The position numbers and the translations under genes are program-made. Below are positions 1 through 13,691 of a stretch of DNA of 50,806 nt, piece after piece. The notes under the pieces were generated by a model, which saw only the letters and a program-made list of their open reading frames with translations, did not search any database and was not told the DNA's origin. The DNA comes from Candidatus Pacearchaeota archaeon (lineage in GTDB: Archaea > Nanobdellota > Nanobdellia > Pacearchaeales > GW2011-AR1). Within the stretch, counting starts at the first letter, position 1. Every line of letters begins with the position of its first letter. The stretch is from NCBI GenBank assembly GCA_019662115.1, contig JAIFVW010000004.1, positions 1 to 50,806 of the forward strand, in the 5' to 3' direction.

Positions 1-3000
1 ATACAATGCCTTATTTGCATCTGTTTCTCCCTTTAGGTTTGTTGCGTTCATCTGTACATTTCCAAGGGTAATATTCTTGTTTCCTGTATTGTTTAATACA
101 AGCGGATCATTGGTTGCAGTGGAGTTTGTAGCTCCTGGAGTTATTTGGGCAAAAGTTATTCCTGATGGGCCGGAGACAAAAGCCGAAAGCTGATTATATG
201 TGAATACGGTTGACTGATTTATTCCTACTGTATTACTTGTATCGTTTATAGAGACAGAGATATTCCAACTGCCGCTGCTATCGAAATACCACATATTCAC
301 AAGGCAGGTGTAATTTGCGTAATTAGTTGCAAATGTACTTGTCCTTGAACATGAAAGATTTTGTCGTACTGTTGCGAGGCCTGTAAAGGAAACATTTACT
401 CGTGAGCTAGCATCCTTAAGATCTCCAAATCCATCTGGATCGAATGCAGTAAAGTTAATGATGACATTAGTTACCGAGTCTTCAGTTGGGTCTTGCGCAA
501 CTACTGGAGTAACAAAGGGAATTGTTGGAGCGGTATTTGTCAATGATATATGGACAGTTCTTTGCTCTGTTTGGTTCTTCACACCAAGGGTATCTACTGA
601 ATATCCAGTAAATATATGATCGCCGGCAGGTAAGGATGTAAAATTATTGTAAGCATGGTCTATATTGTCATCGTACAATGCAAGCACTTCAGTGCTTGTT
701 AATGACCTATTAAATATCATTACCTCATCAATCGATCCATTCCATACTTTACTTGTGTCTCGAGCTCTGGCACCAATGAGAACATTGAAATTTCCAAACT
801 TGGAAAAGTCAGTAGGAGTGGTATTCTTACTTCCGTTGAAGATTCCATTTACATAGAGTGTCTGCAGGCTGCCATTATACGTTCCAACTACATGGTACCA
901 TTGATCGGTATTAGGAACAAAGCTGAATACTGCATTACCTCCGGAGTCATTGTAATAGAATGAGATACGTGCACTGTCATCTAAGTACAATCCTGCTCCG
1001 GCATCGCCTGCAAAGCCTGTGTCAAGGATATATCGCGAGTTGCCGGTTGCTGCGTTATTCCTGGTGAGAAACCAAGCAGAGAAGGTGAATGAAGTATTAC
1101 TATAAAGCTTTTGTGAGTATGGCACTTCCAGGTAATCATCCACTCCATCAAATGTATAGGAGGAATTGAACTTCCCAGTACTATTGGGGAATGCCCCGCT
1201 GACATTGGTTGCATTGTTACCCCAACTAGACAAGTCAATGATTCCTCCAGTAGAATTACGATCATCCATTCGAAGCCACAATCGCAAGCTTCTGTCAAAG
1301 TCAACAAAGGTATAGTGAAGATTTACATTCGTTGAGGTGACATTCACAAAAATTGAGTCAGAAGTCTGTGTCGAGCCATTGGCCGGTGTTGGGTTTGTAA
1401 AATTGATGGTATTAGTCAAAAATTCTCCTATACTATATGTGCTCCATCCTGTTACATTGAAGCTCACATTGCCTGCATTCAATGATGTGAAATTATTGCA
1501 ACTTGGCGCAATACATACTATACCGTTGCGGAATATCTGGGGACTAAGAAACCCTGTCGATAGTCCAAAAAGAGTTACATTTGCGGTTCTGTTCAGTCCT
1601 ATGTTGGATGTAATGTTTACTGTTACATTATTATTTTCAAAACGTATATCATTGCTGAGGTTGCTTCCAGAGCCGTTAATTGATCTTAAGAATCTTATTT
1701 CTCCGTAGAGAGTGCTCTTAAAGTATACAATACCTCCACTTACTCCGAAGGAATAGTTGGCAATATAACTGTCAATGATGTATGTGTTATTGAAGTTTGT
1801 AGCTGATAGTAGAAGGTCAGGGTAAGAAATATTCGTATTGGTAATATTAAAACTAAGATTATTGAAACGAGCATTTATTCCCGTTATGTTGACTGCAGCT
1901 CCCCTATAGGTGCTATTAATTATATTTGCCACAAATGTGTTGTTTGAACTGGAATTTATGAAAATCCCTGCACTATTGTTGAACAGGCTATTTGCTGTGA
2001 TAGTGTTATTTATATTAGAGTCTACAAAATAGATTCCATATTGTCGGTTAGAATTAATTGTGTTGCTCAGAATGATATTGTGGCTGCTGTCAACAGAGGA
2101 ATAGACACCCGATTGATTATTCGAATTAATTGTATTAAGCGTAATATTGTTTTCGTTACCAACCAGCTCTAGGCCATGGACACTATTCGAATTAATTGTA
2201 TTAAGCGTAATATTGTTGTTTGTAGAAGGCAAATATATTCCTCCAAGAGAGTTGTAACTAATATTATTACCTGTCACTATTGTGTGCGTACTTATAGAAC
2301 TATCCAGCTTGAGTCCGTAACCTCCGTTGCTCACAAGCGTATTATTGATAAAGATTCCACGGCCAGAGGAGCTTACCAGAATTCCGTTGTTTGTACTTGC
2401 TTGTATTATATTGCTAACAAATAGATTAGTGCCCATATCGTCTGAACTTATTCCATCGCCGCCAGATGATGAAATAGTGTTTCTTGTTACGTTATTATTA
2501 AGAGGGTTCGTATCAAAAAATATTCCCGCAGTTGCGGGGGCTAGTATTACATTGTTATCAATTACATTAAAACTTGCTGTGGTGCCTAAAAAGATTCCAT
2601 AAGTTCCTGAGCTTAGGCTGTTATTCGCAATAAGACTATTTGTGGCTGAGCTCATGTCTATAATTCTTCCCGCCATGTCGGTAAACGTGTTATTTACAAC
2701 AGTCGCGCTGATTGCAATGACTATACCATCAGTATCTTCTGAAAATAGATTGTCTCGTATAACTGATGCGCTGCCTGACGTGGATATTGCAGTTGTGTGG
2801 CCTCCGAATGTGTTGAATATTACTGATGCAGATCCTTTCACACCAATAGTGTTTGAAGATAATGAGCTCCTGCTTATGTTAAGAAGAGTATTGTCATTAG
2901 CAGTTATACCTTCAGTATTAAAGTTGATAGTGCTGCCGTTGACTCGGTTGTTATTTCCACTTTCAAAGAAAATTCCATGATAGGTATTGGTAGCAGTCGT

Positions 3001-6000
3001 GTTAAGAACTAAAGAATTATTGGAATTTGAGAATCTTACTCCGTAGCCCTCAGTTCCAGGAGCCATCCTGACTTTACAATTTTTAATAGTGGCATTTTCG
3101 ACAGTGTCGACATAAATAGCAGAGGCTTCTAGAGTTATATTCTGTATCGAAAAGCTCTTACAATCAAAATCGACATTTGATGCGTTAATAATGAAGCAAC
3201 CAGTCGCGCCAAGATCTGAGTTATTAAGGCTTCGAGTCATTGCATATGATCCTGGAGAGGATATATTTTGACAACCATTCAGAAGAGTAGTGGGATCATA
3301 GGTAATGGTGAAATTTGTAGCATTCCAAGCCAAATTGCCTGCAGTGTCTACAGCAAGGTAGTTCCAGAAATATGTATCAAATCGTGGTAGTGTGACTGAA
3401 ATGTTTGTTGAATTTGTAGTTCCATTAACTTCCCTGAATGTGGTGTTTACAACAGATGTAGAGTTCCAGATGTATAATGTTGTATTCTTTAATTGGATAT
3501 TATCAGTAAAGTTCCCTAGGAACCCTACTACGCCTATTTTTGTCGAACTTCCATTTGGTGGGGAGATGAGCAACACAACGGGAGGAGTTGCATCAATACT
3601 AAATACAACGGATGCTGTATCATTCCTGTTTCCAGAGGTATCATTTGAATAAACTTGGAACGTATAACTCCCATCTCTGATGCTTGAGTTTGTGTAATTG
3701 AAATGTATGTTGTCAGGTGTTGTCATGGTGTAATTTGTTACCCCTCCGTTTAATGTGAATAGGACTGTTCCGCTTTCATTCAATGATACATTAAATACAA
3801 ACGAAGAGGTTGTGTAGGTAATGTTTGTTGGGACTGTTATGTTTACGACGGGAGGAGTTGTGTCGGCGACTCCGATAGTAACTGTTCTTTGTCCCGTTTG
3901 GTTTTTATTGCCCGAGGTGTCAACTGAATATCCTGTGAATGTGTGAGAGACTGTAGTTAAATTAGTGAAGTTACGGGAATACTGATTCGCTCCCGCATTG
4001 TACAACGCAAGCACCTCAGTGCTTGTTAACGACCTATTAAAGATAAGCACTTCATCAATCGATCCATTCCAGAATCGCTGCACTGTTTTTGCTTCCGCTC
4101 CTATACGCACAGGCTTATCGACCCACGAAAGTGGCGTTACATTTCTTGATCCATTATATACTCCATTAACATAAAGTGTTTGTAAGGTTCCATTATAAGT
4201 ACCCACCACATGGTACCATGTATTAGTAGCTGGTGTAAAGCTAAAGATATAATCTGATGCAGAGTCATTATAATAGAACGAAAAGCGGGATGCTGCATCA
4301 TCTAAGAATAATCCTGTTCCGCTATCTCTTGCTCTACCCATATCTAAAATGTATTTATGCTCACCGGTAGCAACACTTCTTGTATTCACCCAAGCAGATA
4401 AGGTGAAGGAGCCATTGCTGTACAAGCTTGGAGAGGAAGGGATTTCAAGATAGTCATCTATTCCATCAAATGTATAGGAGGAATTGAAGTAACCAAATTT
4501 GTTCTGGAATGCACCACTGATATTAGTTGCATTGTTGCTCCATGTTGAGAGGTCTATCACTCCTCCTGTTGAGTTTATATCATCCATTCTGAGCCAGAGT
4601 TTCAAGTCCCTATCGAAGTCGACAAACGAATAGTGCACTGAGCTGTCATTTGATGTCACATTGACAAAAATAGCTGTTGCACTCTGTGTAGATCCTGCAC
4701 TCGGGGTTGGATTGACGAATGAGATTGCTGGTGCGGAAGTATCTACTATGACGCTAAATATTACTGATGTGCTTGAATTTACATTATTGGATAAATCGAC
4801 GCAGTAATAATTTACGGTATACCCTCCGTTTGCTATGCTTCCATTGCTTGCGTTGAAATCAGTAATACCATTCTGTTGCATTGTAAAGTTATTCACTCCA
4901 GAATTAAGCGTAAAGTTACAGGTAGCATTCTCATTCAATGTGATATTAAACAGAATCGGTAATGCGTGATACGTCTGGTTCTGAGGAAGGTTAACTGTTA
5001 CACGAGGTGCTGCCAAATCAGGAGAACTTAAATTGAATACATAAACTGGAGTACCATTTTTGTTTCCAGAACTGTCAGTTACATTGATTCTCCAGTATTT
5101 CAATCCAACCGAGAGATTATATGCGTTTGCTATTGCCTCAGAAGGAAGAGACTTATTGAATATTACTATTTCATCAATTGATCCATTCCATGCTCCATTA
5201 ACTGCGCCGGCAGTGGTGTATACTTGTCCGATTCCTACTTTCATTGTTCCTCCACGTATGTTTGGAGTCATTCCTACTATGCTTCTGTTTGCTTCGAGAA
5301 TGCCGTTAAGATATAAAGAGGCGTTAGTCCAGTTTTCAACAGTATAGGCAAAGTGGTACCATTGTCCAAGGCTCAAACTTGTAGCACCAAATAAAGGAGC
5401 ATTTTGCCCTCCTCCTGTTGATCCAGAATCATTTTCAAAGTCTGCCATCAAAGCACCAGAGGTTGTATTGACACCGACAAAGAACTGAATATCTGCGGCA
5501 GTGCTTTCTGCTTCATTGACTCCTTTTCCTATAATAGGATATGCAAGTCCTGAACCTGTATTTGCACTTGTTCCATTTCCAAGCAGATATATCCATCCCA
5601 TGACTGTATAGGATTTCATGTCAAAGTCAGCCGAGTCTAAGACGCTTACATTATTATCTGATAAGACTCCGTCAAAAGTAAGTGAACCTGCAACTTTTCC
5701 AGTAGCATTCCAAAATATTGACTGCAAAGTTGCATTGTTTTGAGGTGTAGAGAAATCTTTTGCGTTGGTTATATTTTCTCCTTGCGCAGAAAGATTATCA
5801 AAGTGAAGGAGAAGAACTGTGAAGTTATCTGCTCTTAATGCTGGAGCGCTCCAGTTGAGTATTATAGTCCCATTTGGCTGGTCAATAGAATGATATACAA
5901 GATAATCGTAGATATTTACCGAGTCGTTTGAGGCGTATACAAAAATTTCTGTATGATTATTGTTATCAAATATGCTGAAGTTTAAAGCCGCCGAAGGCGC

Positions 6001-9000
6001 TGTGGTTAAATTGGTATTGTTAAGGGGAGAGTTGAATAATGCGTATGGAAGGATCTGATCAAAAATGAATGCTCTTGTTGCTGTATTATTTAGGTTGTTT
6101 ACGGAGTCCCAGCAATAATATGTTACTGTATATGTGCCATTTGCAATGCTTACATTAGTTGCATTGAAGTCCCTGTTTCCATTGTTTGTCATGCTTATGT
6201 TTGTTACTCCACTATTTAGTGTGTAATTACACGCTGTTCCATTCTCATTTAATGTTACATTGAAACTAATAGGAAGAGTGTTGGTTGCAAATGGAGGCTG
6301 GTTGATTGTTACTATAGGAGGGGTGGCATCGTAAGTTATTGTAAAGTTTGTGGCATTGAATGCGTAGTTGTTCAGAGTATCTGCCACATAATAGTTCCAG
6401 AAATAAGTGTCTCCTCTTGGGAATACAAAAGTAATGTTTGATGAGTTTCCTGTTGATGATATAGCTCTAAAAGTTGTATTGACCAATGAAGTCGAGTTCC
6501 AGATATACAATGTAGCGTTAGAAAGACCTGTATCATCAGTGAATGTTCCATTGAAACTCATTGTTGAAATGCCAGTTGTAGTTCCGTTAGTTGGAACTCG
6601 GAGATTTACAACTGGGAATTGCTCATATGTAACGTTAACGCTCATAAAGTCTACACAAAGATTGCTTGAAGCGGTTCCATTTTCCCTTAATATAACTCGC
6701 ATTGTACCATTTGCAATGAAGTTTAGGGCCATTGCTGATGTGACATTAAAGGTTGTTACATTTTCTGTATTAGCTGCTCCAACGCTATTGTTGGCACTAA
6801 ACCATGCTAATGAAGAGAAGTTCCAGATTGCAAGGTTCTTATGGTCGGTGGCCGTGGTTACATTGCTTTCTGATGTAATGAATGCGCTACTTAATGTGGC
6901 AAAAGTAGGAATTGTGAAATTAACAACAACGAATGCGTCTACTGTTGCCGATCCTAGGAATAGAGAACAGTTGTCGTCTGATTTGTTTAACTGAGTGTAT
7001 ACATTGTTTGGAGATGCTGATGCAGTTGAGAAGGTAAATGTTTGTTCACTAAGTGATCCATTTTGAGCAGGGCTAGTTCCTCCATTTGGCACTATAAAAC
7101 CAGTTGAGGGGTCTGTAATATGGTCGAATTCAACTGTCCCTCCAACAACTCTAAGATCAAATGTATCCTGGCTTCCGGAAAGGTATGGTATGATTAATGT
7201 ATTATATTGGTTTTCCTGAATATTCGTGAATTCCATAATCATGTCGGTTCCATTCATTTCATAGACCTGAACTGTAGGAGTTCCAGAAACAATCCTTGGG
7301 TAGATAGTAATATCATTTCCTTGTGTAAGATTTCTTTCAAAAGTTATCCTTACATAATGAGTGTCTGGAATTGACTCGCTCCAGACACCATCAAGATCTT
7401 TTACATCATTGTATATATCTGAGATGAATAATCGGTTATCATCAAGATGCTGTGCCCTTACTATGTTTATTATTCCATAACCAGGATCTCCTGGTGTAAG
7501 AGTAAAGTTATAAAGCTCCCCTGGAACAAGATCTGTTAAGAATATATCCCATGTCCCAAGACAGGTTCTGTTGTTATAATCCCAGTCTATACACTTGTAA
7601 ATTGTATTGCCTGTTGCCTGGATTGTTACAGTTGCACTAGTGAAATTCTCTATCTGAGGGTCAAGCGCAAATATCTTGTCGAAGCCATCAGTCTCGCTTA
7701 CATTTGTAGTCTCGTCTATGTCTATCATATTGACACTGTTTCCTGCATAGTCTGAGAGATTCAAGTCTGCAAAAACAATCTGATCGACCGAGGATATATC
7801 AAGAGGTTTGATTACAACATCATATGTGTCATTAACTGAAACTATTTGCTCATGTGTTTCGGATGTTTGGTTGTATAAAGTTGTTCCATCACTTGCAATA
7901 ATCATCACAGTGGAATTGATTAGATTTCCATCAGCATCTGTAACTGTGCTATTAACCAGGACATTAACGTCCTGTCGACTAAAGAATACTTTCTCTGTAG
8001 AATTCCTATTGCCCGCAGTATCATTTGCATATACTGTAAATATATAATTTCCTTCTGCAAGAGATTCATTTGTGTCGTTAAACAGTGTTCCGAATACTCC
8101 CTCATTACCAAGCATGCTGATGTTGGTGACTCCTCCATCGAAGCTGTAGGATACTGATCCGTTTTCATTTAAACTAACGTTAAATACAAAAGGTACTCCC
8201 TGTAATCGGACGTATGTTCTGTTTTCAGGAGACAGGATTGTTACTTGTGGGGGAGTTGTATCTCCTGATTGATATATGAGAGTGTAATTATTGGTAGCAA
8301 ACGCATAGTTGTTCTGAGTGTCAGCTACTCTATAGTTCCAGAAGTATGTTCCTGCACGCGGAAGAATAACTGTAATGTTGGTGGAATTCCCTGTTGATGA
8401 TATAGCTCTAAAAGTTGTATTGACCAATGAAGTCGAGTTCCAGATATACAATGTAGCGTTAGAAAGACCTGTATCATCAGTGAATGTTCCATTGAAGCTC
8501 ATATTTGCTATGCTTACTGTTGTTCCGTTTGCAGGAACTCTTAAAGTTACTACAGGAGACTGCTCATATGTAACATTTGCACTGATAAAGTCCACACATA
8601 GGTTGTTTGAAGCGGTTCCGTTTGCATAAACCATGACTTGCACGATATTGTTTGAGACGAAATTTGTCACAAGCGCTGATGTGATGTTGAAGTATGAGAC
8701 ATTCTCTATATTGGCTGCTGAGAGAGAGGTATTCACTCTCAACCATTTAGAGGAACTAAAGTTGAAAAGTGCAAGATCTTTCCTGTCTGTTGCAGTAACA
8801 TTAGATTCCGCAGTTATAAGAATACGATTTATAGAGGCGTATGCAGGTATTGTGAAATTGACAATAACAAATGCATCAACTGTTGCTGATCCAGTAAACA
8901 AGGCGCAACTATTATCAGAGATATTTAATTTTGCAGTTATTGCGTTTGAGGTTGTTGATGATGTTGATAAGGTAAACGTAGTTTCTGTAAGAGTTCCATT

Positions 9001-10830
9001 TGTTCCTGGATTATTGGTTGGGTTTGGAACAAGGAATCCAGTTGAAGGATCAATAATATGATCGAATTCAACTGTTCCTCCAACAATTCTTAAGTCGAAG
9101 GTATCTTGAATTCCCTGTAATCCTGAAAGATAATGCTTGTTGTATTGATTGTCCTGAATATCTGCAAACTGAGTAATAAGAATGTCTTTATCCTTTTCAT
9201 ACACCTCTATTTTAGGAGTTCCAGAAATAACTCTTGGATATATGCTAATATCATTATCTTTTGTAAGGCTCCTTTCAAAAGTTATCCTTACATAATGAGT
9301 GTCTGGAATTGACTCGCTCCAGACACCATCAAGAGCATGAACTTGGCCATAAATCTCGCTTATAAAAGATTTGTTTTGATCCAAATGCTCTGCTTTTGTT
9401 ATTATAATTATTTCAAATACTTGGTCGCTAAGATGAGGAACAACCCATTCTATTGTGTCAATAAGGGAGTTATTGTTTGTATCCTTTGCCGTAAAAGGAT
9501 GCTCTTGACGTGTACCATTTACTATCCAGTATAGCTTTATTGAATTTACATCTGCTGTTTCAGAAATTGATTCAGATGAGCTTACATTGCTGTAATGAAT
9601 TGTTTCTGGGCCATGAATAGTTATTCTTTTATGAGTGGGAGATATTACTTCTTGCGTAAGAGTAGGGGCAGGAGTTTCATAGGATATTTCATAATCTGAA
9701 CTTTCACAGCTTAATTCTTTATCTTCCTGTTTATTATTTTCCTTGCATTTAACCTCATCTTCAAGGCCAATCTTATTAGCCTTTATTTTCTCTGCCTGTT
9801 TTGGAAGTACAAGATCTTTTTTCCCATGAACTTCTTTCTTCCATACTACTGGCTTTCCAACTTCCGCTGGCCCCTGTATAAATTCTTCAAGTGAAATGTT
9901 GGATGTTTGGTTTGCTGATGTCTGGTTTGTATTATTCTGGCTCTTAGAAGGAATAGTTGTGTATGATATTGAAGAGATAGCCATATGTGCTCCATCAAGC
10001 TCTACTCTTATATTGTAATTCTTTTCAGAAAGTTCTTCCTTAGACAGATCGCATGTCTCTTCACAAATGTCTGAGAATTCACTTGAGGTAATAGTTGTAT
10101 TTTCAGAGATTGTTGTGTTTTCCTCAGAGGTATTTTCTACATTATTAGTTGTATTTTCGCTTGATGTTTCTGTCTGGTTTCCTTGAGAGAGAGGCTCCGT
10201 TTGAGAAGGGGTTTGTGGAACCTCTCCCTCGTTTGTAGGAATATCTTCCGGAGATCCAATTACTGCTCCAGTTATGCTGAATTTTTTCTTTTGATTTGAT
10301 GTATCAAGAATAAGCCTGTCATTAAGGTAAACTTTTGCAGTTCCCTCACCCTCTATTGTTCCTGAGATTTTTAATGAGGTTAAAGTTCCATCATGTTGAG
10401 GTTGCCATACATATATTGATGATTCTGTAAATTGCTGATTAATAGAGTCTGTGTATACTTCATCAGACTTGATTGCAAATCCTGTCAATGACCGACCATA
10501 GGAAAGGATTGCAACAAGAACTAACACTCCAAGAGATATGAAGATAAATGAAAGAATTTTTCTCCTTCGTATTTCCGCTTCTTCATACTGTATTCTTATG
10601 CGGCATTCAAGAATGTCTTTTTCATAATGCTCAATCCACTCCTTGAGAGTTCTTCCTTCATATTTTTCGTTTGTTTTTTGCTCATATTCAGATTGTGAAA
10701 TTTCTCGGTTCCAGCATTTATCTTTCAGCTCCTGGAGAAGTCTAATAATCTTTTTTCTTTGTTGTTCAGCGAGAAATATTCTTTTTCTATATTCCTCAAT
10801 CCTGCTTACAGCTCTGGCACCCCTTCTCAT
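1..10830 (-). CDS. Giant membrane-anchored cell-surface protein, 3' end outside the window (>=3610 codons). Order: cytoplasmic N-terminus, one TM, S/T/N/E-rich linker, duplicated module, Ig-like modules, three LamG-like domains and a PbH1/NosD-type beta-helix
   Basis: Absent from the ORF track. Plus-strand triplets in register with nt 1 contain no TTA/CTA/TCA from 1 to 10833. ATG is the reverse complement of 10828-10830, with an in-frame TAG just upstream (CTA at 10834-10836). Translation starts MRRGARAVSRIEEYRKRIFLAEQQRKK. Recognisable motifs include WNGSIDEVMIFNRSLTSTEVLALY and NNITLNTINSN. Confidence 0.9.
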   Translation of the reverse strand, partial: MRRGARAVSRIEEYRKRIFLAEQQRKKIIRLLQELKDKCWNREISQSEYEQKTNEKYEGRTLKEWIEHYEKDILECRIRIQYEEAEIRRRKILSFIFISLGVLVLVAILSYGRSLTGFAIKSDEVYTDSINQQFTESSIYVWQPQHDGTLTSLKISGTIEGEGTAKVYLNDRLILDTSNQKKKFSITGAVIGSPEDIPTNEGEVPQTPSQTEPLSQGNQTETSSENTTNNVENTSEENTTISENTTITSSEFSDICEETCDLSKEELSEKNYNIRVELDGAHMAISSISYTTIPSKSQNNTNQTSANQTSNISLEEFIQGPAEVGKPVVWKKEVHGKKDLVLPKQAEKIKANKIGLEDEVKCKENNKQEDKELSCESSDYEISYETPAPTLTQEVISPTHKRITIHGPETIHYSNVSSSESISETADVNSIKLYWIVNGTRQEHPFTAKDTNNNSLIDTIEWVVPHLSDQVFEIIIITKAEHLDQNKSFISEIYGQVHALDGVWSESIPDTHYVRITFERSLTKDNDISIYPRVISGTPKIEVYEKDKDILITQFADIQDNQYNKHYLSGLQGIQDTFDLRIVGGTVEFDHIIDPSTGFLVPNPTNNPGTNGTLTETTFTLSTSSTTSNAITAKLNISDNSCALFTGSATVDAFVIVNFTIPAYASINRILITAESNVTATDRKDLALFNFSSSKWLRVNTSLSAANIENVSYFNITSALVTNFVSNNIVQVMVYANGTASNNLCVDFISANVTYEQSPVVTLRVPANGTTVSIANMSFNGTFTDDTGLSNATLYIWNSTSLVNTTFRAISSTGNSTNITVILPRAGTYFWNYRVADTQNNYAFATNNYTLIYQSGDTTPPQVTILSPENRTYVRLQGVPFVFNVSLNENGSVSYSFDGGVTNISMLGNEGVFGTLFNDTNESLAEGNYIFTVYANDTAGNRNSTEKVFFSRQDVNVLVNSTVTDADGNLINSTVMIIASDGTTLYNQTSETHEQIVSVNDTYDVVIKPLDISSVDQIVFADLNLSDYAGNSVNMIDIDETTNVSETDGFDKIFALDPQIENFTSATVTIQATGNTIYKCIDWDYNNRTCLGTWDIFLTDLVPGELYNFTLTPGDPGYGIINIVRAQHLDDNRLFISDIYNDVKDLDGVWSESIPDTHYVRITFERNLTQGNDITIYPRIVSGTPTVQVYEMNGTDMIMEFTNIQENQYNTLIIPYLSGSQDTFDLRVVGGTVEFDHITDPSTGFIVPNGGTSPAQNGSLSEQTFTFSTASASPNNVYTQLNKSDDNCSLFLGSATVDAFVVVNFTIPTFATLSSAFITSESNVTTATDHKNLAIWNFSSLAWFSANNSVGAANTENVTTFNVTSAMALNFIANGTMRVILRENGTASSNLCVDFMSVNVTYEQFPVVNLRVPTNGTTTGISTMSFNGTFTDDTGLSNATLYIWNSTSLVNTTFRAISSTGNSSNITFVFPRGDTYFWNYYVADTLNNYAFNATNFTITYDATPPIVTINQPPFATNTLPISFNVTLNENGTACNYTLNSGVTNISMTNNGNRDFNATNVSIANGTYTVTYYCWDSVNNLNNTATRAFIFDQILPYALFNSPLNNTNLTTAPSAALNFSIFDNNNHTEIFVYASNDSVNIYDYLVYHSIDQPNGTIILNWSAPALRADNFTVLLLHFDNLSAQGENITNAKDFSTPQNNATLQSIFWNATGKVAGSLTFDGVLSDNNVSVLDSADFDMKSYTVMGWIYLLGNGTSANTGSGLAYPIIGKGVNEAESTAADIQFFVGVNTTSGALMADFENDSGSTGGGQNAPLFGATSLSLGQWYHFAYTVENWTNASLYLNGILEANRSIVGMTPNIRGGTMKVGIGQVYTTAGAVNGAWNGSIDEIVIFNKSLPSEAIANAYNLSVGLKYWRINVTDSSGNKNGTPVYVFNLSSPDLAAPRVTVNLPQNQTYHALPILFNITLNENATCNFTLNSGVNNFTMQQNGITDFNASNGSIANGGYTVNYYCVDLSNNVNSSTSVIFSVIVDTSAPAISFVNPTPSAGSTQSATAIFVNVTSNDSSVHYSFVDFDRDLKLWLRMDDINSTGGVIDLSTWSNNATNISGAFQNKFGYFNSSYTFDGIDDYLEIPSSPSLYSNGSFTLSAWVNTRSVATGEHKYILDMGRARDSGTGLFLDDAASRFSFYYNDSASDYIFSFTPATNTWYHVVGTYNGTLQTLYVNGVYNGSRNVTPLSWVDKPVRIGAEAKTVQRFWNGSIDEVLIFNRSLTSTEVLALYNAGANQYSRNFTNLTTVSHTFTGYSVDTSGNKNQTGQRTVTIGVADTTPPVVNITVPTNITYTTSSFVFNVSLNESGTVLFTLNGGVTNYTMTTPDNIHFNYTNSSIRDGSYTFQVYSNDTSGNRNDTASVVFSIDATPPVVLLISPPNGSSTKIGVVGFLGNFTDNIQLKNTTLYIWNSTSVVNTTFREVNGTTNSTNISVTLPRFDTYFWNYLAVDTAGNLAWNATNFTITYDPTTLLNGCQNISSPGSYAMTRSLNNSDLGATGCFIINASNVDFDCKSFSIQNITLEASAIYVDTVENATIKNCKVRMAPGTEGYGVRFSNSNNSLVLNTTATNTYHGIFFESGNNNRVNGSTINFNTEGITANDNTLLNISRSSLSSNTIGVKGSASVIFNTFGGHTTAISTSGSASVIRDNLFSEDTDGIVIAISATVVNNTFTDMAGRIIDMSSATNSLIANNSLSSGTYGIFLGTTASFNVIDNNVILAPATAGIFFDTNPLNNNVTRNTISSSGGDGISSDDMGTNLFVSNIIQASTNNGILVSSSGRGIFINNTLVSNGGYGLKLDSSISTHTIVTGNNISYNSLGGIYLPSTNNNITLNTINSNSVHGLELVGNENNITLNTINSNNQSGVYSSVDSSHNIILSNTINSNRQYGIYFVDSNINNTITANSLFNNSAGIFINSSSNNTFVANIINSTYRGAAVNITGINARFNNLSFNITNTNISYPDLLLSATNFNNTYIIDSYIANYSFGVSGGIVYFKSTLYGEIRFLRSINGSGSNLSNDIRFENNNVTVNITSNIGLNRTANVTLFGLSTGFLSPQIFRNGIVCIAPSCNNFTSLNAGNVSFNVTGWSTYSIGEFLTNTINFTNPTPANGSTQTSDSIFVNVTSTNVNLHYTFVDFDRSLRLWLRMDDRNSTGGIIDLSSWGNNATNVSGAFPNSTGKFNSSYTFDGVDDYLEVPYSQKLYSNTSFTFSAWFLTRNNAATGNSRYILDTGFAGDAGAGLYLDDSARISFYYNDSGGNAVFSFVPNTDQWYHVVGTYNGSLQTLYVNGIFNGSKNTTPTDFSKFGNFNVLIGARARDTSKVWNGSIDEVMIFNRSLTSTEVLALYDDNIDHAYNNFTSLPAGDHIFTGYSVDTLGVKNQTEQRTVHISLTNTAPTIPFVTPVVAQDPTEDSVTNVIINFTAFDPDGFGDLKDASSRVNVSFTGLATVRQNLSCSRTSTFATNYANYTCLVNMWYFDSSGSWNISVSINDTSNTVGINQSTVFTYNQLSAFVSGPSGITFAQITPGATNSTATNDPLVLNNTGNKNITLGNVQMNATNLKGETDANKALY
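670..1320 (-). other. LamG/concanavalin-A-like lectin domain 3
   Basis: Runs from LRLWLRMDDRNSTGG to SKVWNGSIDEVMIFNRSLTSTEVLALYDD (lines 661 and 721 translated directly). Shares the 27-nt tract tccatcaaatgtataggaggaattgaa with domain 2. Confidence 0.75.
1690..3280 (-). other. Right-handed parallel beta-helix region (PbH1/NosD-like), roughly 20 coils
   Basis: N-terminal cap reads CQNISSPGSYAMTRSLNNSDLGATGCFIINASNVDFDC. It is followed by many coils of about 22 aa of the type N-x-I-x-x-N-x-I-x-x-N-x-x-x-G-I, for example NNITLNTINSNSVHGLELVGNENNITLNTINSNNQSGVY. Confidence 0.75.
2118..2217 (-). repeat. Exact 34-nt direct repeat with 66-nt period (one beta-helix coil)
   Basis: tattcgaattaattgtattaagcgtaatattgtt occurs at 2118-2151 and at 2184-2217. 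Confidence 0.9.
3990..4640 (-). other. LamG/concanavalin-A-like lectin domain 2
   Basis: Runs from LKLWLRMDDINSTGG to QRFWNGSIDEVLIFNRSLTSTEVLALYNAG (line 4021 translated directly). Confidence 0.75.
5105..5830 (-). other. LamG/concanavalin-A-like lectin domain 1 (Laminin_G_3-like)
   Basis: Runs from LLLHFDNLS to GAVNGAWNGSIDEIVIFNKSLPSEAIANAYNL. The WNGSIDE-hydrophobic-FN-x-SL motif is the typical C-terminal strand of LamG_3 domains. Confidence 0.7.
6070..7460 (-). repeat. Copy B of the internal duplication in the giant gene
   Basis: Same evidence as copy A. The offset differs by 3 nt between the two identical tracts, so the indel is in frame. Confidence 0.85.
8000..9400 (-). repeat. Copy A of the internal duplication in the giant gene (AEHLD...DGVWSESIPDTHYVRITFER...VEFDHI module plus two Ig-like modules)
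   Basis: Collinear with 6070-7460 at an offset of 1938-1941 nt. Identical tracts are 8390-8496 = 6449-6555 (107 nt) and 9272-9334 = 7334-7396 (63 nt). Confidence 0.85.
10070..10255 (-). other. Low-complexity S/T/N/E/Q-rich stalk or linker of the giant protein
   Basis: Translation reads PEDIPTNEGEVPQTPSQTEPLSQGNQTETSSENTTNNVENTSEENTTISENTTITSSEFSD. Confidence 0.7.
10498..10557 (-). other. Single transmembrane anchor of the giant protein (ILSFIFISLGVLVLVAILSY), after about 90 cytoplasmic residues
   Basis: Direct translation of 10501-10560 gives KILSFIFISLGVLVLVAILS. It is flanked upstream by the basic stretch EIRRRK. Confidence 0.8.
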
Positions 10831-10853
10831 TGCCTAATAGGTGGAAAAGGGGC

Positions 10854-10861
10854 ATTATAAA
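10854..10861 (-). promoter_or_regulatory. Candidate TATA box of the giant gene (TTTATAAT on the minus strand), implying a leaderless or near-leaderless mRNA
   Basis: Centre lies about 27 nt upstream of the ATG at 10830. No purine-rich SD-like element lies between them. Confidence 0.5.
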
Positions 10862-10862
10862 C

Positions 10863-10965
10863 CTTATTATGTATGTAAAAATAAACTTGACTTTATGCGT
10901 TAATTACCAACTATGTATGTATCTCTACTTATTATGTATGTAGAGTTATACTTATTATGTATGTA
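10863..10965. repeat. Array of four TATGTATGTA decamers, three of them inside CTTATTATGTATGTA 15-mers, upstream of the giant gene
   Basis: 15-mers are at 10863-10877, 10928-10942 and 10951-10965. A shorter CTATGTATGTA is at 10911-10921. Decamer starts are spaced 44, 21 and 23 nt. Confidence 0.85.
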
Positions 10966-11022: not shown

Positions 11023-11196
11023 TTACTTAAGTTTGTGCGCGTCATCCTTTGAGACAACTCTCCAGCACTCGTGGCTTCCTGCAGGAGACTTAGTTACAGC
11101 GAAAAACCTTCCCTTCTTTTCTACAATTCTATAGCTGTTTGTTTCAAACTTCTTTTTCGTCTTAACATCGTAGAAACTTATTTTTGGTTTTTCCAT
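11023..11196 (-). CDS. Small lysine-rich protein, 57 aa, below the track cutoff; function unknown, possibly nucleic-acid binding
   Basis: ATG at 11196 and TAA at 11025-11023. Sequence is MEKPKISFYDVKTKKKFETNSYRIVEKKGRFFAVTKSPAGSHECWRVVSKDDAHKLK. A TTTATATA box on the minus strand (11223-11230) lies about 30 nt upstream. Confidence 0.6.
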   Translation of the reverse strand: MEKPKISFYDVKTKKKFETNSYRIVEKKGRFFAVTKSPAGSHECWRVVSKDDAHKLK

Positions 11197-12230: not shown

Positions 12231-13691
12231 ATGACTTCAAAGATCACAATCGATGAGCTTGCCTCTTTTTGCAAGAGAAAGGGTTTTGTTTATCCTTCAG
12301 GAGAACTTTACGGAAGCCTGGCAGGATTTTGGGATTTTGGGCCGTTAGGTGTAGAGCTAAAAAACAACATCAAAAAATCATGGTGGAAGTATCATGTGCA
12401 TAAAAGAGAAGATATGGTTGGGATAGACGGCGCTATCATTACTAATCCTAAAGTATGGGAAGCATCTGGGCATGTTTCTAATTTTGTCGACATTGCAGTT
12501 GTATGTAAAAAGTGCAAGAACAAGACAAAGATTGACAAACATGAGCTGGGAAAGGTAAAATGTGAGAAATGCGGAGGAGAATTCGAAAGCAAGGGAGAGT
12601 TTAACCCAATGTTTGTCACCCATGTAGGTCCTATTCAGGAAGATGCGATCAAAGCATATCTAAGGCCTGAGACTGCACAGCTGATTTTTGCCAACTTTAA
12701 GTCTGTACAGGAAGTTTCCAGGCTAAAACTTCCATTTGGAATTGCTCAAATAGGAAAGGCTTTCAGAAATGAGATCTCTCCTAGAGAATTTATTTTTAGA
12801 TGCAGGGAGTTCGAACAGATGGAGATTGAGTACTTTATCTCCCAGGGAATGAAATGCCCATATATTGATGAAATTGGAAATATTTCCATGACTATCTACA
12901 GTGAGGAGATGCAAAAGTCAGAAAAGAAGCCCAAGGAAATGAAACTACGAGATGCCTGGAAACAGGGAATAATAAAAACTGATTGGCATGCTTACTGGCT
13001 TGCTACAGAGCTGCAGTGGTTTATACTTCTTGGAGCCAGTGAAGACAAATTCAGGGCAAGGCAACATACGAAAGAGGAAAAAAGCCATTATGCGTCAGAC
13101 ACATGGGATTTGGAGTATGAATTTCCAATGGGTTGGAGAGAGCTTCAGGGTTTTGCCAATCGGGGAGATTTTGATCTAAGACAGCATGAGAAGCATTCGA
13201 AAAAAAGTATGGAAATCAATGATCCAGAATCCGGAAAAGTAGTTCCACATGTAGTTTGCGAGCCTTCTCTGGGTGTGGAAAGAGCATTTCTAGTTTTTAT
13301 GTTGGAGGCTTATGAACATGATAAAAAAAGAGATAATATCGTGCTACATTTAAGCCCGAGACTTGCTCCATACAAAGCGGCAGTATTTCCCCTCATATCC
13401 AAGGGAGAAGTTCTTGAAATGTCTCGAGAGATTTATAGGGATTTACTTGAGGATTTTGCAGTCTTATTTGACAAATCGGGAAGCATAGGAAGGAGATATG
13501 CCAGGAATGACGAAATGGGAACTCCTTATTGTATCACAGTTGATGAAGACAGTCTGAAGGATAAAAGTGCCACCATAAGGGAGAGGGATACAACTAAACA
13601 AATTAGAGTAAAGGTATCTGAGCTCAGGGATATTTTAAGGAAACTCATACGAGATGAGATAGATTTTGAAGAAGCAGGAAAAATTGTTTGA
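12231..13691 (+). CDS. glyS: Glycyl-tRNA synthetase (class II, alpha2 archaeal/eukaryal type)
   Basis: Contains FVYPSGELYGSLAGFWDFGPLGVELKNNIK, WEASGHVSNFVD, RPETAQ, FRNEISPR and EPSLGVERAF. Confidence 0.9.
   Translation: MTSKITIDELASFCKRKGFVYPSGELYGSLAGFWDFGPLGVELKNNIKKSWWKYHVHKREDMVGIDGAIITNPKVWEASGHVSNFVDIAVVCKKCKNKTKIDKHELGKVKCEKCGGEFESKGEFNPMFVTHVGPIQEDAIKAYLRPETAQLIFANFKSVQEVSRLKLPFGIAQIGKAFRNEISPREFIFRCREFEQMEIEYFISQGMKCPYIDEIGNISMTIYSEEMQKSEKKPKEMKLRDAWKQGIIKTDWHAYWLATELQWFILLGASEDKFRARQHTKEEKSHYASDTWDLEYEFPMGWRELQGFANRGDFDLRQHEKHSKKSMEINDPESGKVVPHVVCEPSLGVERAFLVFMLEAYEHDKKRDNIVLHLSPRLAPYKAAVFPLISKGEVLEMSREIYRDLLEDFAVLFDKSGSIGRRYARNDEMGTPYCITVDEDSLKDKSATIRERDTTKQIRVKVSELRDILRKLIRDEIDFEEAGKIV

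What the first reader, a model, noticed from the sequence alone, without database searches (positions are those of the whole stretch)
1..10830. Unlisted giant ORF: at least 3610 codons of a membrane-anchored surface protein fill the first 10.8 kb
The ORF track shows only fragments of 195 aa or less here, because this ORF has no stop inside the window. I read every plus-strand triplet in register with nt 1 and found no TTA, CTA or TCA between 1 and 10833. The ATG is at 10830-10828, and an in-frame TAG lies immediately upstream. The translation is coherent protein throughout. It runs from a cytoplasmic N-terminus and one TM helix into a low-complexity stalk, repeated Ig-like modules, three LamG-like lectin domains and a roughly 530-aa beta-helix. 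It continues past nt 1. One gene taking over 20 percent of a compact window, built from adhesin and carbohydrate-binding folds, is the kind of protein proposed to mediate cell-cell attachment in small episymbiotic archaea. The AEHLD...DGVWSESIPDTHYVRITFER...VEFDHI module does not match any family I can name.
Basis: partly seen in the sequence, partly recalled or inferred. Interest (0 to 1): 0.85.

Follow-up and report, generated by a model that had tools for sequence, protein, structure and literature searches.

The report
Giant lectin-rich surface protein, Pacearchaeota
The first 10.8 kb of this contig encode the first 3,610 residues of a giant, sugar-coated, membrane-anchored surface protein of a tiny Pacearchaeota archaeon, built from carbohydrate-binding modules; its relatives end in a DNA-binding tail and share a conserved promoter repeat, so it may signal as well as adhere.

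Summary
The minus-strand frame in register with nt 1 is open from 10833 to 1 (chance about 1e-102). It starts at ATG 10830-10828 and runs off the contig. The window is a whole 50,806-bp contig of a Candidatus Pacearchaeota MAG, and GenBank already lists this CDS as MBX4212008.1, a partial beta-helix repeat protein.

The domain calls hold: one N-terminal TM, three Laminin_G_3 domains, a roughly 460-aa right-handed beta-helix, and Ig-like spacers. There are 213 N-glycosylation sequons against about 90 expected.

The unnamed AEHLD...VEFDHI module has no Pfam family. It models confidently (pLDDT 93) as a CBM32/discoidin-like jelly roll. It marks a family of about 1,900 protein clusters in Woese-/Pace-/Nanoarchaeota and in CPR-like bacteria.

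New here: relatives with the same cytoplasmic N-terminal head and the same C-terminal cassette end in a hydrophobic segment, a poly-Lys stretch and two sigma-70-region-4/Tfx-like HTH domains. Their promoters, including this one, carry direct repeats of TACATA[A/C]ATAATAAGT around the TATA box.

Best reading: a glycan-binding adhesin, probably about 3.9 kaa long. A coupling to transcription is possible but unproven, because the 3' end is missing.

The parts
10950..10965 (-). Distal copy of the promoter repeat TACATACATAATAAGT
   Evidence: Exact 14-mer and 16-mer matches. The same motif is repeated upstream of head-type relatives in more than 15 loci.
10927..10942 (-). Second copy of the promoter repeat TACATACATAATAAGT
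10862..10877 (-). TATA-proximal copy of the repeat (TACATACATAATAAGG). It abuts the TATA box on its upstream (BRE) side.
   Evidence: There are only three copies in the 50.8-kb window, all at this promoter.
10855..10861 (-). TATA-like box TTTATAA, centred about 28 nt before the ATG. This implies a leaderless or near-leaderless transcript.
   Evidence: Read from the sequence. Relatives have TTTATAAG at the same distance from their ATG. Function is inferred.
10828..10830 (-). Start codon ATG. In-frame TAG at 10834-10836.
   Evidence: The N-terminus is homologous to the N-termini of P0001, P0002 and P0008.
10558..10830 (-). Cytoplasmic head, aa 1-91. Basic, helical/coiled-coil-like, and specific to the family.
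   Evidence: No Pfam family. An iterative HMM finds it at the N-terminus of 32 relatives. No sequons.
10495..10557 (-). Single transmembrane helix, aa 92-112 (signal anchor, N-in)
   Evidence: Kyte-Doolittle peak of 2.85. No other strong hydrophobic segment in the 3,610 aa.
9874..10494 (-). Membrane-proximal beta domain interrupted by Thr/Asn/Ser/Glu-rich low-complexity stalk, aa 113-319
   Evidence: Read from the sequence. Conserved in P0001, P0002, P0007 and P0008. No Pfam family.
9430..9873 (-). 'U' domain, aa 320-467: all-beta, with an EF-hand-like D-x-N-N-N-x-L-I-D loop
   Evidence: AF2 model of aa 320-612, pLDDT 91.4. Weak EF-hand loop matches in the PDB sequence search, E 0.006. Conserved in archaeal and CPR relatives.
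9031..9429 (-). Module A copy 1 (AEHLD...VEFDHI), aa 468-600: CBM32/discoidin-like jelly roll
   Evidence: AF2 pLDDT 93.3, pTM 0.86. Foldseek top hits are CBM32, F-type lectin, muskelin discoidin domain and CBM6, with probability 1.0 and TM 0.45-0.61. No Pfam family.
8560..9030 (-). 'X' domain copy 1, aa 601-757, beta-rich, unnamed
   Evidence: Paralogous to aa 1247-1404. No Pfam family.
7972..8559 (-). Two Ig-like modules, aa 758-855 (type a) and 856-953 (type b, Big_13-like)
   Evidence: Internal paralogues. Sub-threshold Big_7/PKD and Big_13 hits.
7492..7971 (-). Beta-rich region preceding the second module A, aa 954-1113
   Evidence: The same arrangement is seen in P0105 and P0106. No Pfam family.
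7093..7491 (-). Module A copy 2, aa 1114-1246
   Evidence: 65-68% identical to copy 1.
6031..7092 (-). X copy 2 (aa 1247-1404), Ig-like type a (1405-1500) and type b (1501-1600): second half of the roughly 480-aa super-repeat
   Evidence: 57-76% identity to aa 601-950.
5128..5658 (-). Laminin_G_3 domain 1, aa 1725-1901
   Evidence: Pfam PF13385, 52 bits, E 1.1e-13.
4726..5022 (-). Ig-like type b module, aa 1937-2035
   Evidence: Big_13 sub-threshold.
4012..4467 (-). Laminin_G_3 domain 2, aa 2122-2273
   Evidence: Pfam PF13385, 106 bits, E 2.6e-30.
3289..3813 (-). Big_13 Ig-like module (aa 2340-2413) and Ig-like type a module (aa 2416-2514)
   Evidence: PF19077, 33.5-42.4 bits, above the cutoff of 27. 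Paralogy.
1858..3231 (-). Right-handed parallel beta-helix, about aa 2534-2991
   Evidence: Beta_helix 156 bits (5 stretches), NosD 105 bits, Pect-lyase_RHGA_epim 27 bits. TIGR03804 repeats. Weak AlgG epimerase match in PDB.
685..1149 (-). Laminin_G_3 domain 3, aa 3228-3382. The whole module aa 3142-3437 is about 65% identical to aa 2036-2336.
   Evidence: PF13385, 96 bits. Paralogy.
1..525 (-). First about 175 aa of the family's conserved C-terminal cassette (aa 3436-3610), cut by the contig end
   Evidence: 30-47% identical to the same cassette in 31 relatives, where it always lies 73-480 aa from the protein's end.

Best explanation
The feature is the 5' 10.83 kb of a real gene, cut by the contig end. 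It encodes a giant, heavily N-glycosylated surface protein of a Pacearchaeota (DPANN) archaeon.

A 91-aa cytoplasmic head and one TM helix anchor it N-in. Everything after the TM helix is outside the cell. The order is: a low-complexity stalk; a U domain with a probable Ca2+ loop; two CBM32-like jelly rolls (module A); Ig-like spacers; three LamG/ConA-like lectin domains; a roughly 460-aa parallel beta-helix; and the start of a conserved terminal cassette.

The most likely function is multivalent binding of glycans on another cell's surface (a host or partner) or on polymers. In other words it is an adhesin, with the Ig-like modules acting as extenders.

It belongs to a very large, unnamed family of Woese-/Pace-/Nanoarchaeota and CPR-like bacteria defined by the U-A unit. 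Within that family it belongs to the subfamily whose complete members end in about 80 more cassette residues, a short hydrophobic segment, a poly-Lys stretch and two sigma-70-region-4/Tfx-like HTH domains. The full protein is therefore predicted to be about 3.9 kaa, with both ends in the cytoplasm.

Shown: the ORF, the topology signals, the domain families, the fold of module A, the family size and distribution, and the promoter repeats. Inferred: glycan binding, adhesion, and the missing C-terminus.
For: - ORF, start and contig end.
- Archaeal context (Nre, tRNA-splicing endonuclease, ATP-dependent ligase) and the Pacearchaeota label.
- TM at aa 92-112. There are no sequons in the first 200 aa and 213 afterwards, against about 90 expected from composition, as expected for an extracellular N-glycosylated chain.
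- LamG x3, beta-helix and Big_13.
- Module A: AF2 pLDDT 93.3. Foldseek hits with probability 1.0 go to CBM32, F-type lectins, the muskelin discoidin domain and CBM6.
- Family size: 1,930 representative clusters at E<=1e-3 and 1,214 at E<=1e-30, up to 5,919 aa.
- Distribution: 252 loci in GTDB species representatives. The top 80 are almost all Woese-/Pace-/Nanoarchaeota, often with several paralogues per genome. In the top representatives, 116 of 140 have an N-terminal TM.
- The CPR-type member P0014 sits among NusA, trigger factor, ClpP and RNase Y.
- Relatives place module A in front of varied effector domains: LamG/DUF2341-like in P0036 and a NosD helix in P0100.
- C-terminal prediction: cassette homology, tails, and head-tail co-occurrence. 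Among complete genes in the loci: 12 head plus tail, 2 head only, 0 tail only, 26 neither.
Against: No ligand, localisation or expression data exist for this protein or any family member that I could find.

The fold similarity of module A is at superfamily level only (about 10% identity, TM 0.45-0.61). This jelly-roll fold also serves protein-protein contacts, as in IFT25 and muskelin.

The beta-helix could be catalytic rather than adhesive.

The C-terminus is absent from the window, and two of 14 complete head-type relatives lack the tail.

The hydrophobic segment before the poly-Lys stretch in relatives is short, about 12-15 residues. A Kyte-Doolittle scan flags it in only a minority of them.
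Confidence: 0.75

Rival explanations
1. Contact sensor or membrane-tethered transcription factor. This extends the adhesin reading rather than excluding it. The giant ectodomain is the sensor of a two-TM protein. Its cytoplasmic C-terminal tandem HTH tail, either still tethered or released by proteolysis, binds the TACATA[A/C]ATAATAAGT repeats in its own promoter. Surface binding would then feed back on expression.
For: - Complete relatives with the same head end in a hydrophobic segment, a poly-Lys stretch and two HTH domains. These match Sigma70_r4_2 (3 of 6 tails above the gathering cutoff), ECF-sigma region 4 and Tfx (14 of 16 tails), and an archaeal transcription regulator in the PDB (E 1e-3).
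- Head and tail co-occur: 12 of 14 complete head-type genes have the tail and 0 of 26 others do. None of the 25 MVHK-head proteins has it.
- The repeats are specific. Of 45 hits (<=2 mismatches) in 2.28 Mb scanned, 38 lie within 400 nt upstream of family genes. They occur at 17 of 26 head-type genes against 1 of 51 others, Fisher p about 1e-9.
- The layout is fixed: distal repeat, about 22 nt, TTTATAAG, 6 nt, proximal repeat, A, ATG. These are classic activator and repressor positions at an archaeal promoter (established knowledge).
- The window has the head, the cassette and three repeats.
- An asymmetric 16-nt site fits two tandem HTHs in one chain (inference).
Against: - The window lacks the tail.
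- Nothing shows that the tail binds this motif.
- Stand-alone soluble proteins made of the same tandem HTH (146-193 aa, on contigs up to 153 kb) exist in Woesearchaeota and could be the real binders.
- Nine of 26 head-type genes show no motif at <=2 mismatches.
- In the window the arrangement differs: there is no repeat between the TATA box and the ATG.
- The C-terminal hydrophobic segment is short for a TM helix.
Confidence: 0.3
2. Surface-tethered polysaccharide-degrading or -modifying enzyme. The beta-helix would be a catalytic lyase, hydrolase or epimerase domain, and the CBM32-like and LamG modules would target it to its substrate, for example a host cell wall or environmental glycans.
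For: - The beta-helix matches NosD/Beta_helix, and sits exactly at threshold for the rhamnogalacturonase/epimerase pectate-lyase-like family (27.0 bits against a cutoff of 27).
- The only PDB sequence matches are to the alginate C5-epimerase AlgG (E 0.0095).
- CBM32 and LamG modules commonly accompany carbohydrate-active enzymes (established knowledge; the Foldseek hits are mostly CBMs of glycoside hydrolases and lyases).
- Large murein-transglycosylase proteins specific to Woese-/Pacearchaeota have been proposed to attack host walls (PMC8204110).
Against: - There is no match to any catalytic glycoside-hydrolase, lyase or transglycosylase family above threshold.
- No catalytic residues could be assessed.
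- Across the family the helix is an optional module and the U-A unit is the constant.
Confidence: 0.2
3. Structural cell-envelope (S-layer-like) protein, rather than an adhesin for another cell.
For: It is extracellular, heavily sequon-rich and membrane-anchored, like archaeal S-layer glycoproteins (established knowledge).
Against: - Several divergent paralogues occur per genome, with very different lengths (about 800 to more than 4,300 aa) and shuffled effector domains. That pattern is typical of adhesin or receptor families, not of a lattice-forming protein.
- No S-layer family was matched.
Confidence: 0.08
4. Artefact: a chimeric or collapsed assembly, or a decaying pseudogene that happens to stay open.
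For: The gene contains internal repeats and lies at a contig end, where assemblies often break.
Against: - An open frame of 3,611 codons has a chance probability of about 1e-102.
- The repeats are only 73-88% identical at DNA level.
- Every segment has homologues in the same order in independent genomes: P0105, P0106 and P0001.
- Composition is uniform.
Confidence: 0.02

Closest known systems
SPEARE proteins of Nanohaloarchaeota (Hamm et al. 2019, PMC6642349)
   Same: Both are giant (3.3-8.5 kaa) DPANN surface proteins. Both are mostly extracytoplasmic, have at least one laminin-G domain plus other adhesion domains and a single TM, and have been proposed to mediate attachment to hosts. One SPEARE member also has its TM near the N-terminus.
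   Different: SPEARE proteins are defined by serine-protease and cytoplasmic type III restriction-endonuclease domains. Neither was found in the 3,610 aa here. In relatives of this protein the cytoplasmic tail is a tandem HTH, not a nuclease. SPEARE proteins are not reported to carry the U-A unit.
Family 32 carbohydrate-binding modules / discoidin (F5/8 type C) / F-type lectin domains (galactose-binding-domain-like jelly rolls)
   Same: The AF2 model of module A superposes on CBM32 (2v72, GH89 and GH84 CBM32s), lectinolysin and pneumococcal fucose-binding modules, the muskelin discoidin domain and CBM6. Foldseek probability is 1.0 and TM 0.45-0.61.
   Different: Identity is only about 10%, and there is no Pfam or PDB sequence match. 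The conserved motifs (KAEHLD-N-R, YVRVTFE, NDITIY, QDTFDL) are specific to this family. Ligand-binding residues could not be compared.
Giant bacterial repeat adhesins (e.g. MpIBP, SiiE, LapA-type; my own knowledge, not tested here)
   Same: The same design logic: a cell-anchored end, a long run of Ig-like extender modules, and lectin-type ligand-binding modules placed distally.
   Different: There are no RTX repeats and no type I secretion signal. This protein is anchored by a TM helix, belongs to an archaeal host, and has dense N-glycosylation sequons. It is predicted to have a second anchor with a cytoplasmic DNA-binding tail.
Membrane-bound one-component regulators (ToxR/CadC type) and the archaeal Tfx / sigma-70 region 4 HTH
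   Same: In complete relatives a cytoplasmic HTH is joined through a membrane segment to an extracytoplasmic domain. The HTHs score as Sigma70_r4_2, ECF-sigma region 4 and Tfx.
   Different: ToxR and CadC carry an N-terminal winged helix and a small periplasmic sensor. Here the HTHs are C-terminal and tandem, the ectodomain is 1-5.9 kaa, and there is a second cytoplasmic element (the head). The tail is not present in the window itself.
Large Woese-/Pacearchaeota-specific extracellular murein-transglycosylase proteins (Castelle et al. 2021, PMC8204110)
   Same: The same lineages, with a proposed role in attachment to partner cell walls.
   Different: No transglycosylase domain was detected here.

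Membership tests
Laminin_G_3 / ConA-like lectin (PF13385) | Profile match above Pfam's gathering score | tested here: met
   Three separate domains score 52, 106 and 96 bits against a cutoff of 27.6.
Right-handed parallel beta-helix (PF13229 / NosD PF05048 / TIGR03804) | Repeated beta-helix coils matched above threshold | tested here: met
   Beta_helix 156 bits (5 stretches) and NosD 105 bits. TIGR03804 scores 21.3 against 19.45.
Right-handed parallel beta-helix carbohydrate-active enzymes | Catalytic residues or a catalytic family signature | tested here: inconclusive
   There is only a threshold-level Pect-lyase_RHGA_epim hit (27.0 against 27) and an AlgG match at E 0.0095. The active site was not assessable.
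CBM32 / F5_F8_type_C | Galactose-binding-domain-like jelly-roll fold | tested here: met
   The module A model (pLDDT 93.3) hits CBM32, discoidin and F-lectin structures at probability 1.0, with a best E of 7e-4.
CBM32 / F5_F8_type_C | Sequence-profile membership | tested here: not met
   No Pfam hit on module A at E<=1. No PDB sequence hit with the profile, except on the EF-hand-like loop of the neighbouring U domain.
CBM32 / F5_F8_type_C | Carbohydrate binding | not testable with these tools
   Needs glycan arrays or ITC with recombinant module A.
SPEARE proteins | Laminin-G and other adhesion domains in a giant extracytoplasmic region | tested here: met
   Definition taken from PMC6642349.
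SPEARE proteins | Serine protease domain | tested here: not met
   No protease family in the Pfam or NCBIfam scans of the 3,610 aa.
SPEARE proteins | Cytoplasmic type III restriction-endonuclease domain (the most conserved part) | tested here: not met
   Absent from the cytoplasmic head. The C-terminus is missing from the window, but in relatives the cytoplasmic tail is a tandem HTH, not a nuclease.
Unnamed DPANN/CPR 'U-A' surface-protein family (defined here) | N-terminal TM, followed within about 300-900 aa by the U domain and module A | tested here: met
   TM at aa 92-112, U at 320-467, A at 468-600. The same order is seen in relatives.
Head / HTH-tail subfamily of that family (defined here) | Cytoplasmic head domain of about 90 aa | tested here: met
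   The head HMM was seeded with the window protein's own aa 1-92, so the window matches it by construction. The informative result is that it recovers the N-termini of 32 relatives.
Head / HTH-tail subfamily of that family (defined here) | Conserved C-terminal cassette | tested here: met
   aa 3436-3610 are 30-47% identical to the terminal cassette of 31 relatives. The cassette is cut by the contig end.
Head / HTH-tail subfamily of that family (defined here) | C-terminal hydrophobic segment, poly-Lys stretch and two sigma-70-r4/Tfx-like HTHs | not testable with these tools
   This lies beyond nt 1 of the contig. Attempts to extend the contig failed. It is predicted from 12 of 14 complete head-type relatives.
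Head / HTH-tail subfamily of that family (defined here) | Direct repeats of TACATA[A/C]ATAATAAGT flanking the TATA box | tested here: met
   Three copies at 10862-10965. There are no others in the window at <=2 mismatches.
Archaeal S-layer glycoproteins | Match to a known S-layer family, or a single dominant copy per genome | tested here: not met
   No S-layer family was matched. The family is multi-copy and variable in architecture.

The most novel reading that the evidence does not exclude
This gene represents a class of giant 'adhesin-receptors' in DPANN archaea. The protein would span the membrane twice, display a 1-6 kaa lectin-rich ectodomain, and carry a cytoplasmic tandem sigma-70-r4/Tfx-like HTH tail. 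That tail would bind the conserved TACATA[A/C]ATAATAAGT repeats in the gene's own promoter. If so, it would be a direct, one-protein link between host or partner contact and transcription in episymbiotic archaea. The U-A recognition unit would be shared across domains with CPR bacteria.
Probability: 0.3. Interest if true: 0.85.

Novelty: new variant of a known kind. Interest (0 to 1): 0.6.

Why it matters
DPANN archaea such as Pacearchaeota are uncultivated and are thought to live attached to other cells. How they recognise partners is an open question.

This gene takes up a fifth of a 50-kb contig. It is a concrete member of a family of about 1,900 clusters that no domain database names. The family's constant part is a CBM32-like module that models with high confidence, and that module is shared with CPR bacteria, the other major ultra-small episymbiont radiation.

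Two family-level observations turn a vague 'adhesin' label into testable hypotheses. The first is the HTH tail behind a second membrane segment. The second is a 16-nt repeat placed at fixed positions around the TATA box in more than 15 genomes. Three questions follow. Which glycans do module A and the LamG domains bind? Does the tail, or a soluble paralogue, bind the repeat? Does contact change expression?

If the link is only correlative, the finding is still a well-characterised but ordinary giant surface protein that GenBank already lists.

Tried and rejected
- The homologue search with the full 3,610-aa query timed out. I replaced it with the N-terminal 620 aa.
- Extending the contig failed. 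An exact look-up of the neighbouring aaRS in the assembly index found nothing. An exact 40-nt search of JGI metagenome contigs found nothing. The public record confirms that the contig ends at nt 1.
- Alignment A1 was too diverse for the locus scan. A tighter alignment, A3, worked.
- Foldseek with the two-domain U+A model gave only weak, diluted matches. Module A alone gave clear ones.
- The PDB sequence search with the whole protein gave only two marginal AlgG hits. With the U-A profile it gave only EF-hand-loop matches.
- I considered SPEARE membership and rejected it: there is no protease or nuclease.
- I considered assembly collapse in the repeats and rejected it on DNA divergence.
- I checked whether the small basic 57-aa ORF just upstream is a conserved partner. 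It has no homologue near relatives and no Pfam family.
- I looked for a second module A or an HTH-tail paralogue elsewhere in the window and found none.
- Three literature searches found no description of this family, its tail or the promoter repeat. That library is incomplete, so this is weak evidence of novelty.


Full report
**1. The observation**

Reverse-complementing window 1..10833 and translating in register gives 3,611 codons without a stop. The nearest upstream in-frame stop is TAG at 10836-10834. It is followed by one GCA codon and then ATG at 10830-10828. With the strand's base composition a random codon is a stop 6.3% of the time, so an open run this long has a probability of about 1e-102.

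The gene fills 21% of the window. The fragments of 195 aa or less that the ORF track shows in this region are off-frame ORFs.

An exact look-up shows that the same 3,610-aa sequence is NCBI MBX4212008.1, 'right-handed parallel beta-helix repeat-containing protein, partial [Candidatus Pacearchaeota archaeon]'. It sits on one contig of 50,806 bp, exactly the window length. Two neighbouring proteins map to the same contig (the sequence is also P0104). So nt 1 is a contig end. The gene is truly truncated there, and GenBank already annotates it as a partial CDS.

The context genes confirm an archaeon: Nre, tRNA-splicing endonuclease, ATP-dependent DNA ligase and aminoacyl-tRNA synthetases.

I found nothing suggesting an artefact:
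- GC is uniform.
- Internal DNA repeats are only 73-88% identical, and the longest exact repeat is 34 nt.
- The order of segments is reproduced in independent genomes.

Read mapping was not possible.

**2. Anatomy**

A Kyte-Doolittle scan finds one strong TM helix at aa 92-112, after a Lys/Arg-rich 91-aa head. There are 213 N-X-S/T sequons against about 90 expected from composition. None lies in the first 200 residues. This fits an N-in signal anchor with a glycosylated extracellular chain.

Pfam and NCBIfam results:
- Three Laminin_G_3 domains: aa 1725-1901, 2122-2273 and 3228-3382.
- A right-handed beta-helix at about aa 2534-2991, matched by Beta_helix, NosD and TIGR03804.
- One Big_13 Ig-like domain above threshold, at aa 2340-2413.

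Self-comparison shows:
- A roughly 480-aa super-repeat, aa 468-950 against 1114-1600, at 57-76% identity.
- A duplicated LamG module, aa 2036-2336 against 3142-3437, at about 65% identity.
- Two kinds of Ig-like module, present three and four times.

About half of the chain matches no Pfam family even at E<=1. The unmatched parts are the head, the membrane-proximal domain, U, A, X, aa 954-1113, aa 3000-3140 and aa 3436-3610.

**3. The unnamed AEHLD...VEFDHI module**

It occurs twice, at aa 468-600 and 1114-1246. Together with the preceding 'U' domain it is conserved in proteins labelled Pacearchaeota, Woesearchaeota and Nanoarchaeota. A distinct sequence type (KAWHLD) occurs in Staskawiczbacteria and other CPR bacteria. 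One CPR-type member, P0014, lies on a 127-kb contig between NusA, trigger factor, ClpP and RNase Y. Its context is therefore truly bacterial.

A profile of the module finds 1,930 representative clusters at E<=1e-3 and 1,214 at E<=1e-30 among 1.84 billion representatives. Many are giants, up to 5,919 aa. A scan of GTDB species representatives found 252 loci. The top 80 are nearly all Woese-/Pace-/Nanoarchaeota, including the single-cell genome AAA011-D5, and often carry several paralogues per genome. The genes run from about 800 to more than 4,300 aa. They nearly always have one N-terminal TM, with the module 300-900 aa behind it.

AlphaFold2 with a 70-80-sequence alignment gives confident all-beta models: U+A at pLDDT 91.4, and A alone at pLDDT 93.3 with pTM 0.86. 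Foldseek with A alone returns CBM32 modules, F-type lectins, the muskelin discoidin domain, IFT25 and CBM6. Probability is 1.0, the best E is 7e-4, TM is 0.45-0.61 and identity is about 10%.

Module A is therefore a divergent galactose-binding-domain-like jelly roll. Sugar binding is inferred, not shown.

The U domain carries a D-x-[DN]-x-[DN]-G-x-[IL]-D-x-x-E-W loop that weakly matches EF-hand loops (E 0.006), which suggests Ca2+ binding. Relatives place module A in front of different effector sets: LamG/DUF2341-like in P0036 and a NosD helix in P0100.

**4. What lies beyond the contig end**

The last 175 residues (aa 3436-3610) are 30-47% identical to a cassette that sits at the very end of the protein in 31 relatives. 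The number of residues after the aligned part clusters at 73-131 or 219-302.

In the longer class the sequence continues as follows:
- about 75-85 aa, ending in W-x-[IV]-K-I;
- a short hydrophobic stretch of 12-15 residues;
- a run of Lys/Arg;
- a roughly 180-aa tail with two repeats of ...E[AS][IL].KY[LM]KE......Y.EIA..LNRD.RT[IV]W..Y..A.KK.

The tails match:
- Sigma70_r4_2, with 3 of 6 above the gathering cutoff;
- ECF-sigma region 4 and the archaeal Tfx family, in 14 of 16 tails;
- an 'archaeal transcription regulator' and SigH in the PDB, at E 1e-3 to 6e-3.

The tail goes with the window protein's type of cytoplasmic head. Among complete genes in the loci there are 12 with head and tail, 2 with head only, 0 with tail only and 26 with neither. 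None of the 25 proteins with the alternative MVHKKY...GPYYYESYR head has the tail. Most 'head-only' database entries end in mid-domain, so they look like fragments.

By this association the window protein most likely continues for about 260-300 aa, ending as TM plus poly-Lys plus two HTHs, for a total of about 3.9 kaa. I put this at about 0.8. It cannot be checked, because attempts to extend the contig failed.

**5. A conserved promoter element**

Upstream of the ATG the window has three exact copies of ACATACATAATAAG. As 16-mers they lie at 10862-10877, 10927-10942 and 10950-10965 on the minus strand. There are no others in the 50.8 kb. The proximal copy abuts a TATA-like TTTATAA at 10855-10861, centred about 28 nt before the ATG.

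The same 16-mer, TACATA[A/C]ATAATAAGT, is repeated upstream of head-type relatives in many different genomes. The layout is strikingly constant: distal repeat, about 22 nt, TTTATAAG, 6 nt, proximal repeat, A, ATG. Repeat spacing is 51-53 bp.

The numbers:
- Of 45 hits (<=2 mismatches) in 2.28 Mb scanned, 38 lie within 400 nt upstream of family genes.
- 17 of 26 head-type genes have a hit, against 1 of 51 other family genes (Fisher p about 1e-9).

The TATA position implies leaderless transcripts. The proximal site lies between the TATA box and the start, where archaeal repressors act. The distal site lies upstream of BRE/TATA, where activators act (established knowledge of archaeal promoters). 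The window's layout is a variant, shared in part with L030, the locus of its closest relative P0001: one repeat sits directly at the BRE position and two lie further upstream.

This both validates the start codon and identifies a subfamily-specific cis-element. What binds it is unknown. The protein's own tandem HTH tail is an attractive candidate. However, stand-alone soluble proteins consisting of the same tandem HTH (146-193 aa, on contigs up to 153 kb) exist in Woesearchaeota. None is encoded on this contig.

**6. Interpretation**

Best supported (0.75): a giant N-glycosylated, membrane-anchored, multivalent glycan-binding surface protein. It is an adhesin of a presumably episymbiotic Pacearchaeota cell, with Ig-like extenders and lectin-type modules (two CBM32-like, three LamG and a beta-helix).

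Rivals:
- The beta-helix could make it a tethered carbohydrate-active enzyme (0.2). The evidence is a threshold-level pectate-lyase-like hit and a marginal AlgG hit, with no catalytic family match.
- An S-layer role is unlikely (0.08), given the multi-copy, shuffled family.
- An artefact is very unlikely (0.02).

The most novel reading (0.3) is compatible with adhesion. It holds that the subfamily is a contact sensor, or membrane-tethered transcription factor, that autoregulates through the repeats.

**7. Comparison with what is known**

The closest described proteins are the SPEARE proteins of Nanohaloarchaeota: giant, LamG-bearing and proposed to mediate host attachment (PMC6642349). Their defining protease and restriction-endonuclease domains are absent here, so this protein is not a member.

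Module A shares its fold with CBM32 and discoidin domains but not their sequence family. The predicted tail resembles ToxR/CadC-type membrane-bound regulators in logic only.

Three literature searches found no description of the U-A family, of the HTH-tailed subfamily, or of the promoter repeat. That library is incomplete.

**8. Verdict**

However, the gene is already annotated in GenBank as a partial CDS, and giant lectin-rich surface proteins are expected in DPANN archaea.

What raises it above the ordinary are the family-level features found here:
- a large unnamed CBM32-like module family shared with CPR bacteria;
- a two-anchor architecture with a tandem HTH tail in complete relatives;
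- a conserved, precisely positioned promoter repeat that is present in the window.

Novelty: new variant of a known kind. Interest: 0.6.

Noticed in passing
window 10855-10965 (minus strand); loci L006, L007, L011-L014, L018, L022, L028, L030, L036, L041, L051, L053, L062, L064, L068, L080: Direct repeats of TACATA[A/C]ATAATAAGT flank the TATA box of head-type family genes in many genomes, at fixed positions. Three copies lie in the window's promoter and none elsewhere in the 50.8 kb.
   Followed up: yes
loci L059, L029, L035, L077, L079 (300 nt upstream of the module-A gene): Family genes with the alternative MV[HY]KKY...GPYYYESYR cytoplasmic head carry a different repeated upstream motif, (A)GTTACACTACC(TTT). 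A similar TAGGCACTACAAA repeat lies further upstream of some head-type genes (L028, L036, L051, L053). This may be a second subfamily-specific cis-element.
   Followed up: no
P0353, P0354, P0310, P0311, P0333, P0358 (Woesearchaeota): Stand-alone soluble proteins of 146-193 aa consist of the same tandem sigma-70-r4/Tfx-like HTH pair found as the tail of giant family members. The profile search found 1,314 proteins at E<=1e-5. This looks like a DPANN transcription-factor family with both free and giant-protein-fused forms.
   Followed up: partly
window 11024-11196 (minus strand): A small basic 57-aa ORF (MEKPKISFYDVKTKKKFETNSYRIVEKKGRFFAVTKSPAGSHECWRVVSKDDAHKLK) lies directly upstream of the giant gene on the same strand. 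It has no Pfam family and no homologue near relatives in the 80 loci.
   Followed up: yes
window 14806-14876 (+): ARAGORN calls a tRNA-Ala(GGC) here, but the Rfam gathering-threshold scan reports only the tRNA-Met at 17428-17499. The call also overlaps the listed start (14836) of a ParA/MinD-like ORF. Either the tRNA is atypical or a false positive, or the ORF starts further downstream.
   Followed up: no
window 22572-25040 (+): The leucyl-tRNA synthetase carries the tRNA-synt_1_2 editing domain (222 bits). That is the bacterial-type LeuRS architecture (my own knowledge), in an archaeal genome. This exact sequence was not in the protein collection, although its neighbours were.
   Followed up: no
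window 12231-13691 (+): This class II aaRS (tRNA-synt_2b plus HGTP_anticodon) is named glycine-tRNA ligase in GenBank (MBX4212013.1). Pfam alone cannot tell Gly, Pro, His and Thr specificities apart.
   Followed up: no
giant protein aa 113-120 and 185-192; relatives P0001, P0005, P0006, P0009, P0010, P0015: A short motif [LI]TG[FRKHA]x[IV] recurs right after the N-terminal TM and at the borders of the low-complexity linkers across the family. It may mark strands of a split beta domain, or a processing site.
   Followed up: no
P0106 (3,588 aa) and L042: Some family members without the HTH tail also have a C-terminal TM. In P0106 it is followed by a repetitive Lys/Tyr-rich cytoplasmic tail of a different kind. 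Double anchoring therefore seems to have arisen with more than one type of tail.
   Followed up: no
window 41945-44179 (+) and 44246-45850 (+): A 744-aa Beta_propel (PF09826, 532 bits) protein is followed by a 534-aa ORF with no Pfam family. These may be further envelope or secreted proteins on the same contig.
   Followed up: no
loci L006, L026, L053, L066, L069, L072 (record titles): A few module-A loci sit in MAGs labelled Patescibacteria, Methanosarcinales, Bacillota, Nitrosotenuis or Nitrososphaera. Their sequences are of the DPANN type (for example, L006 is near-identical to the Nanoarchaeota SAG locus L007). These are probably binning contaminants rather than true occurrences.
   Followed up: partly
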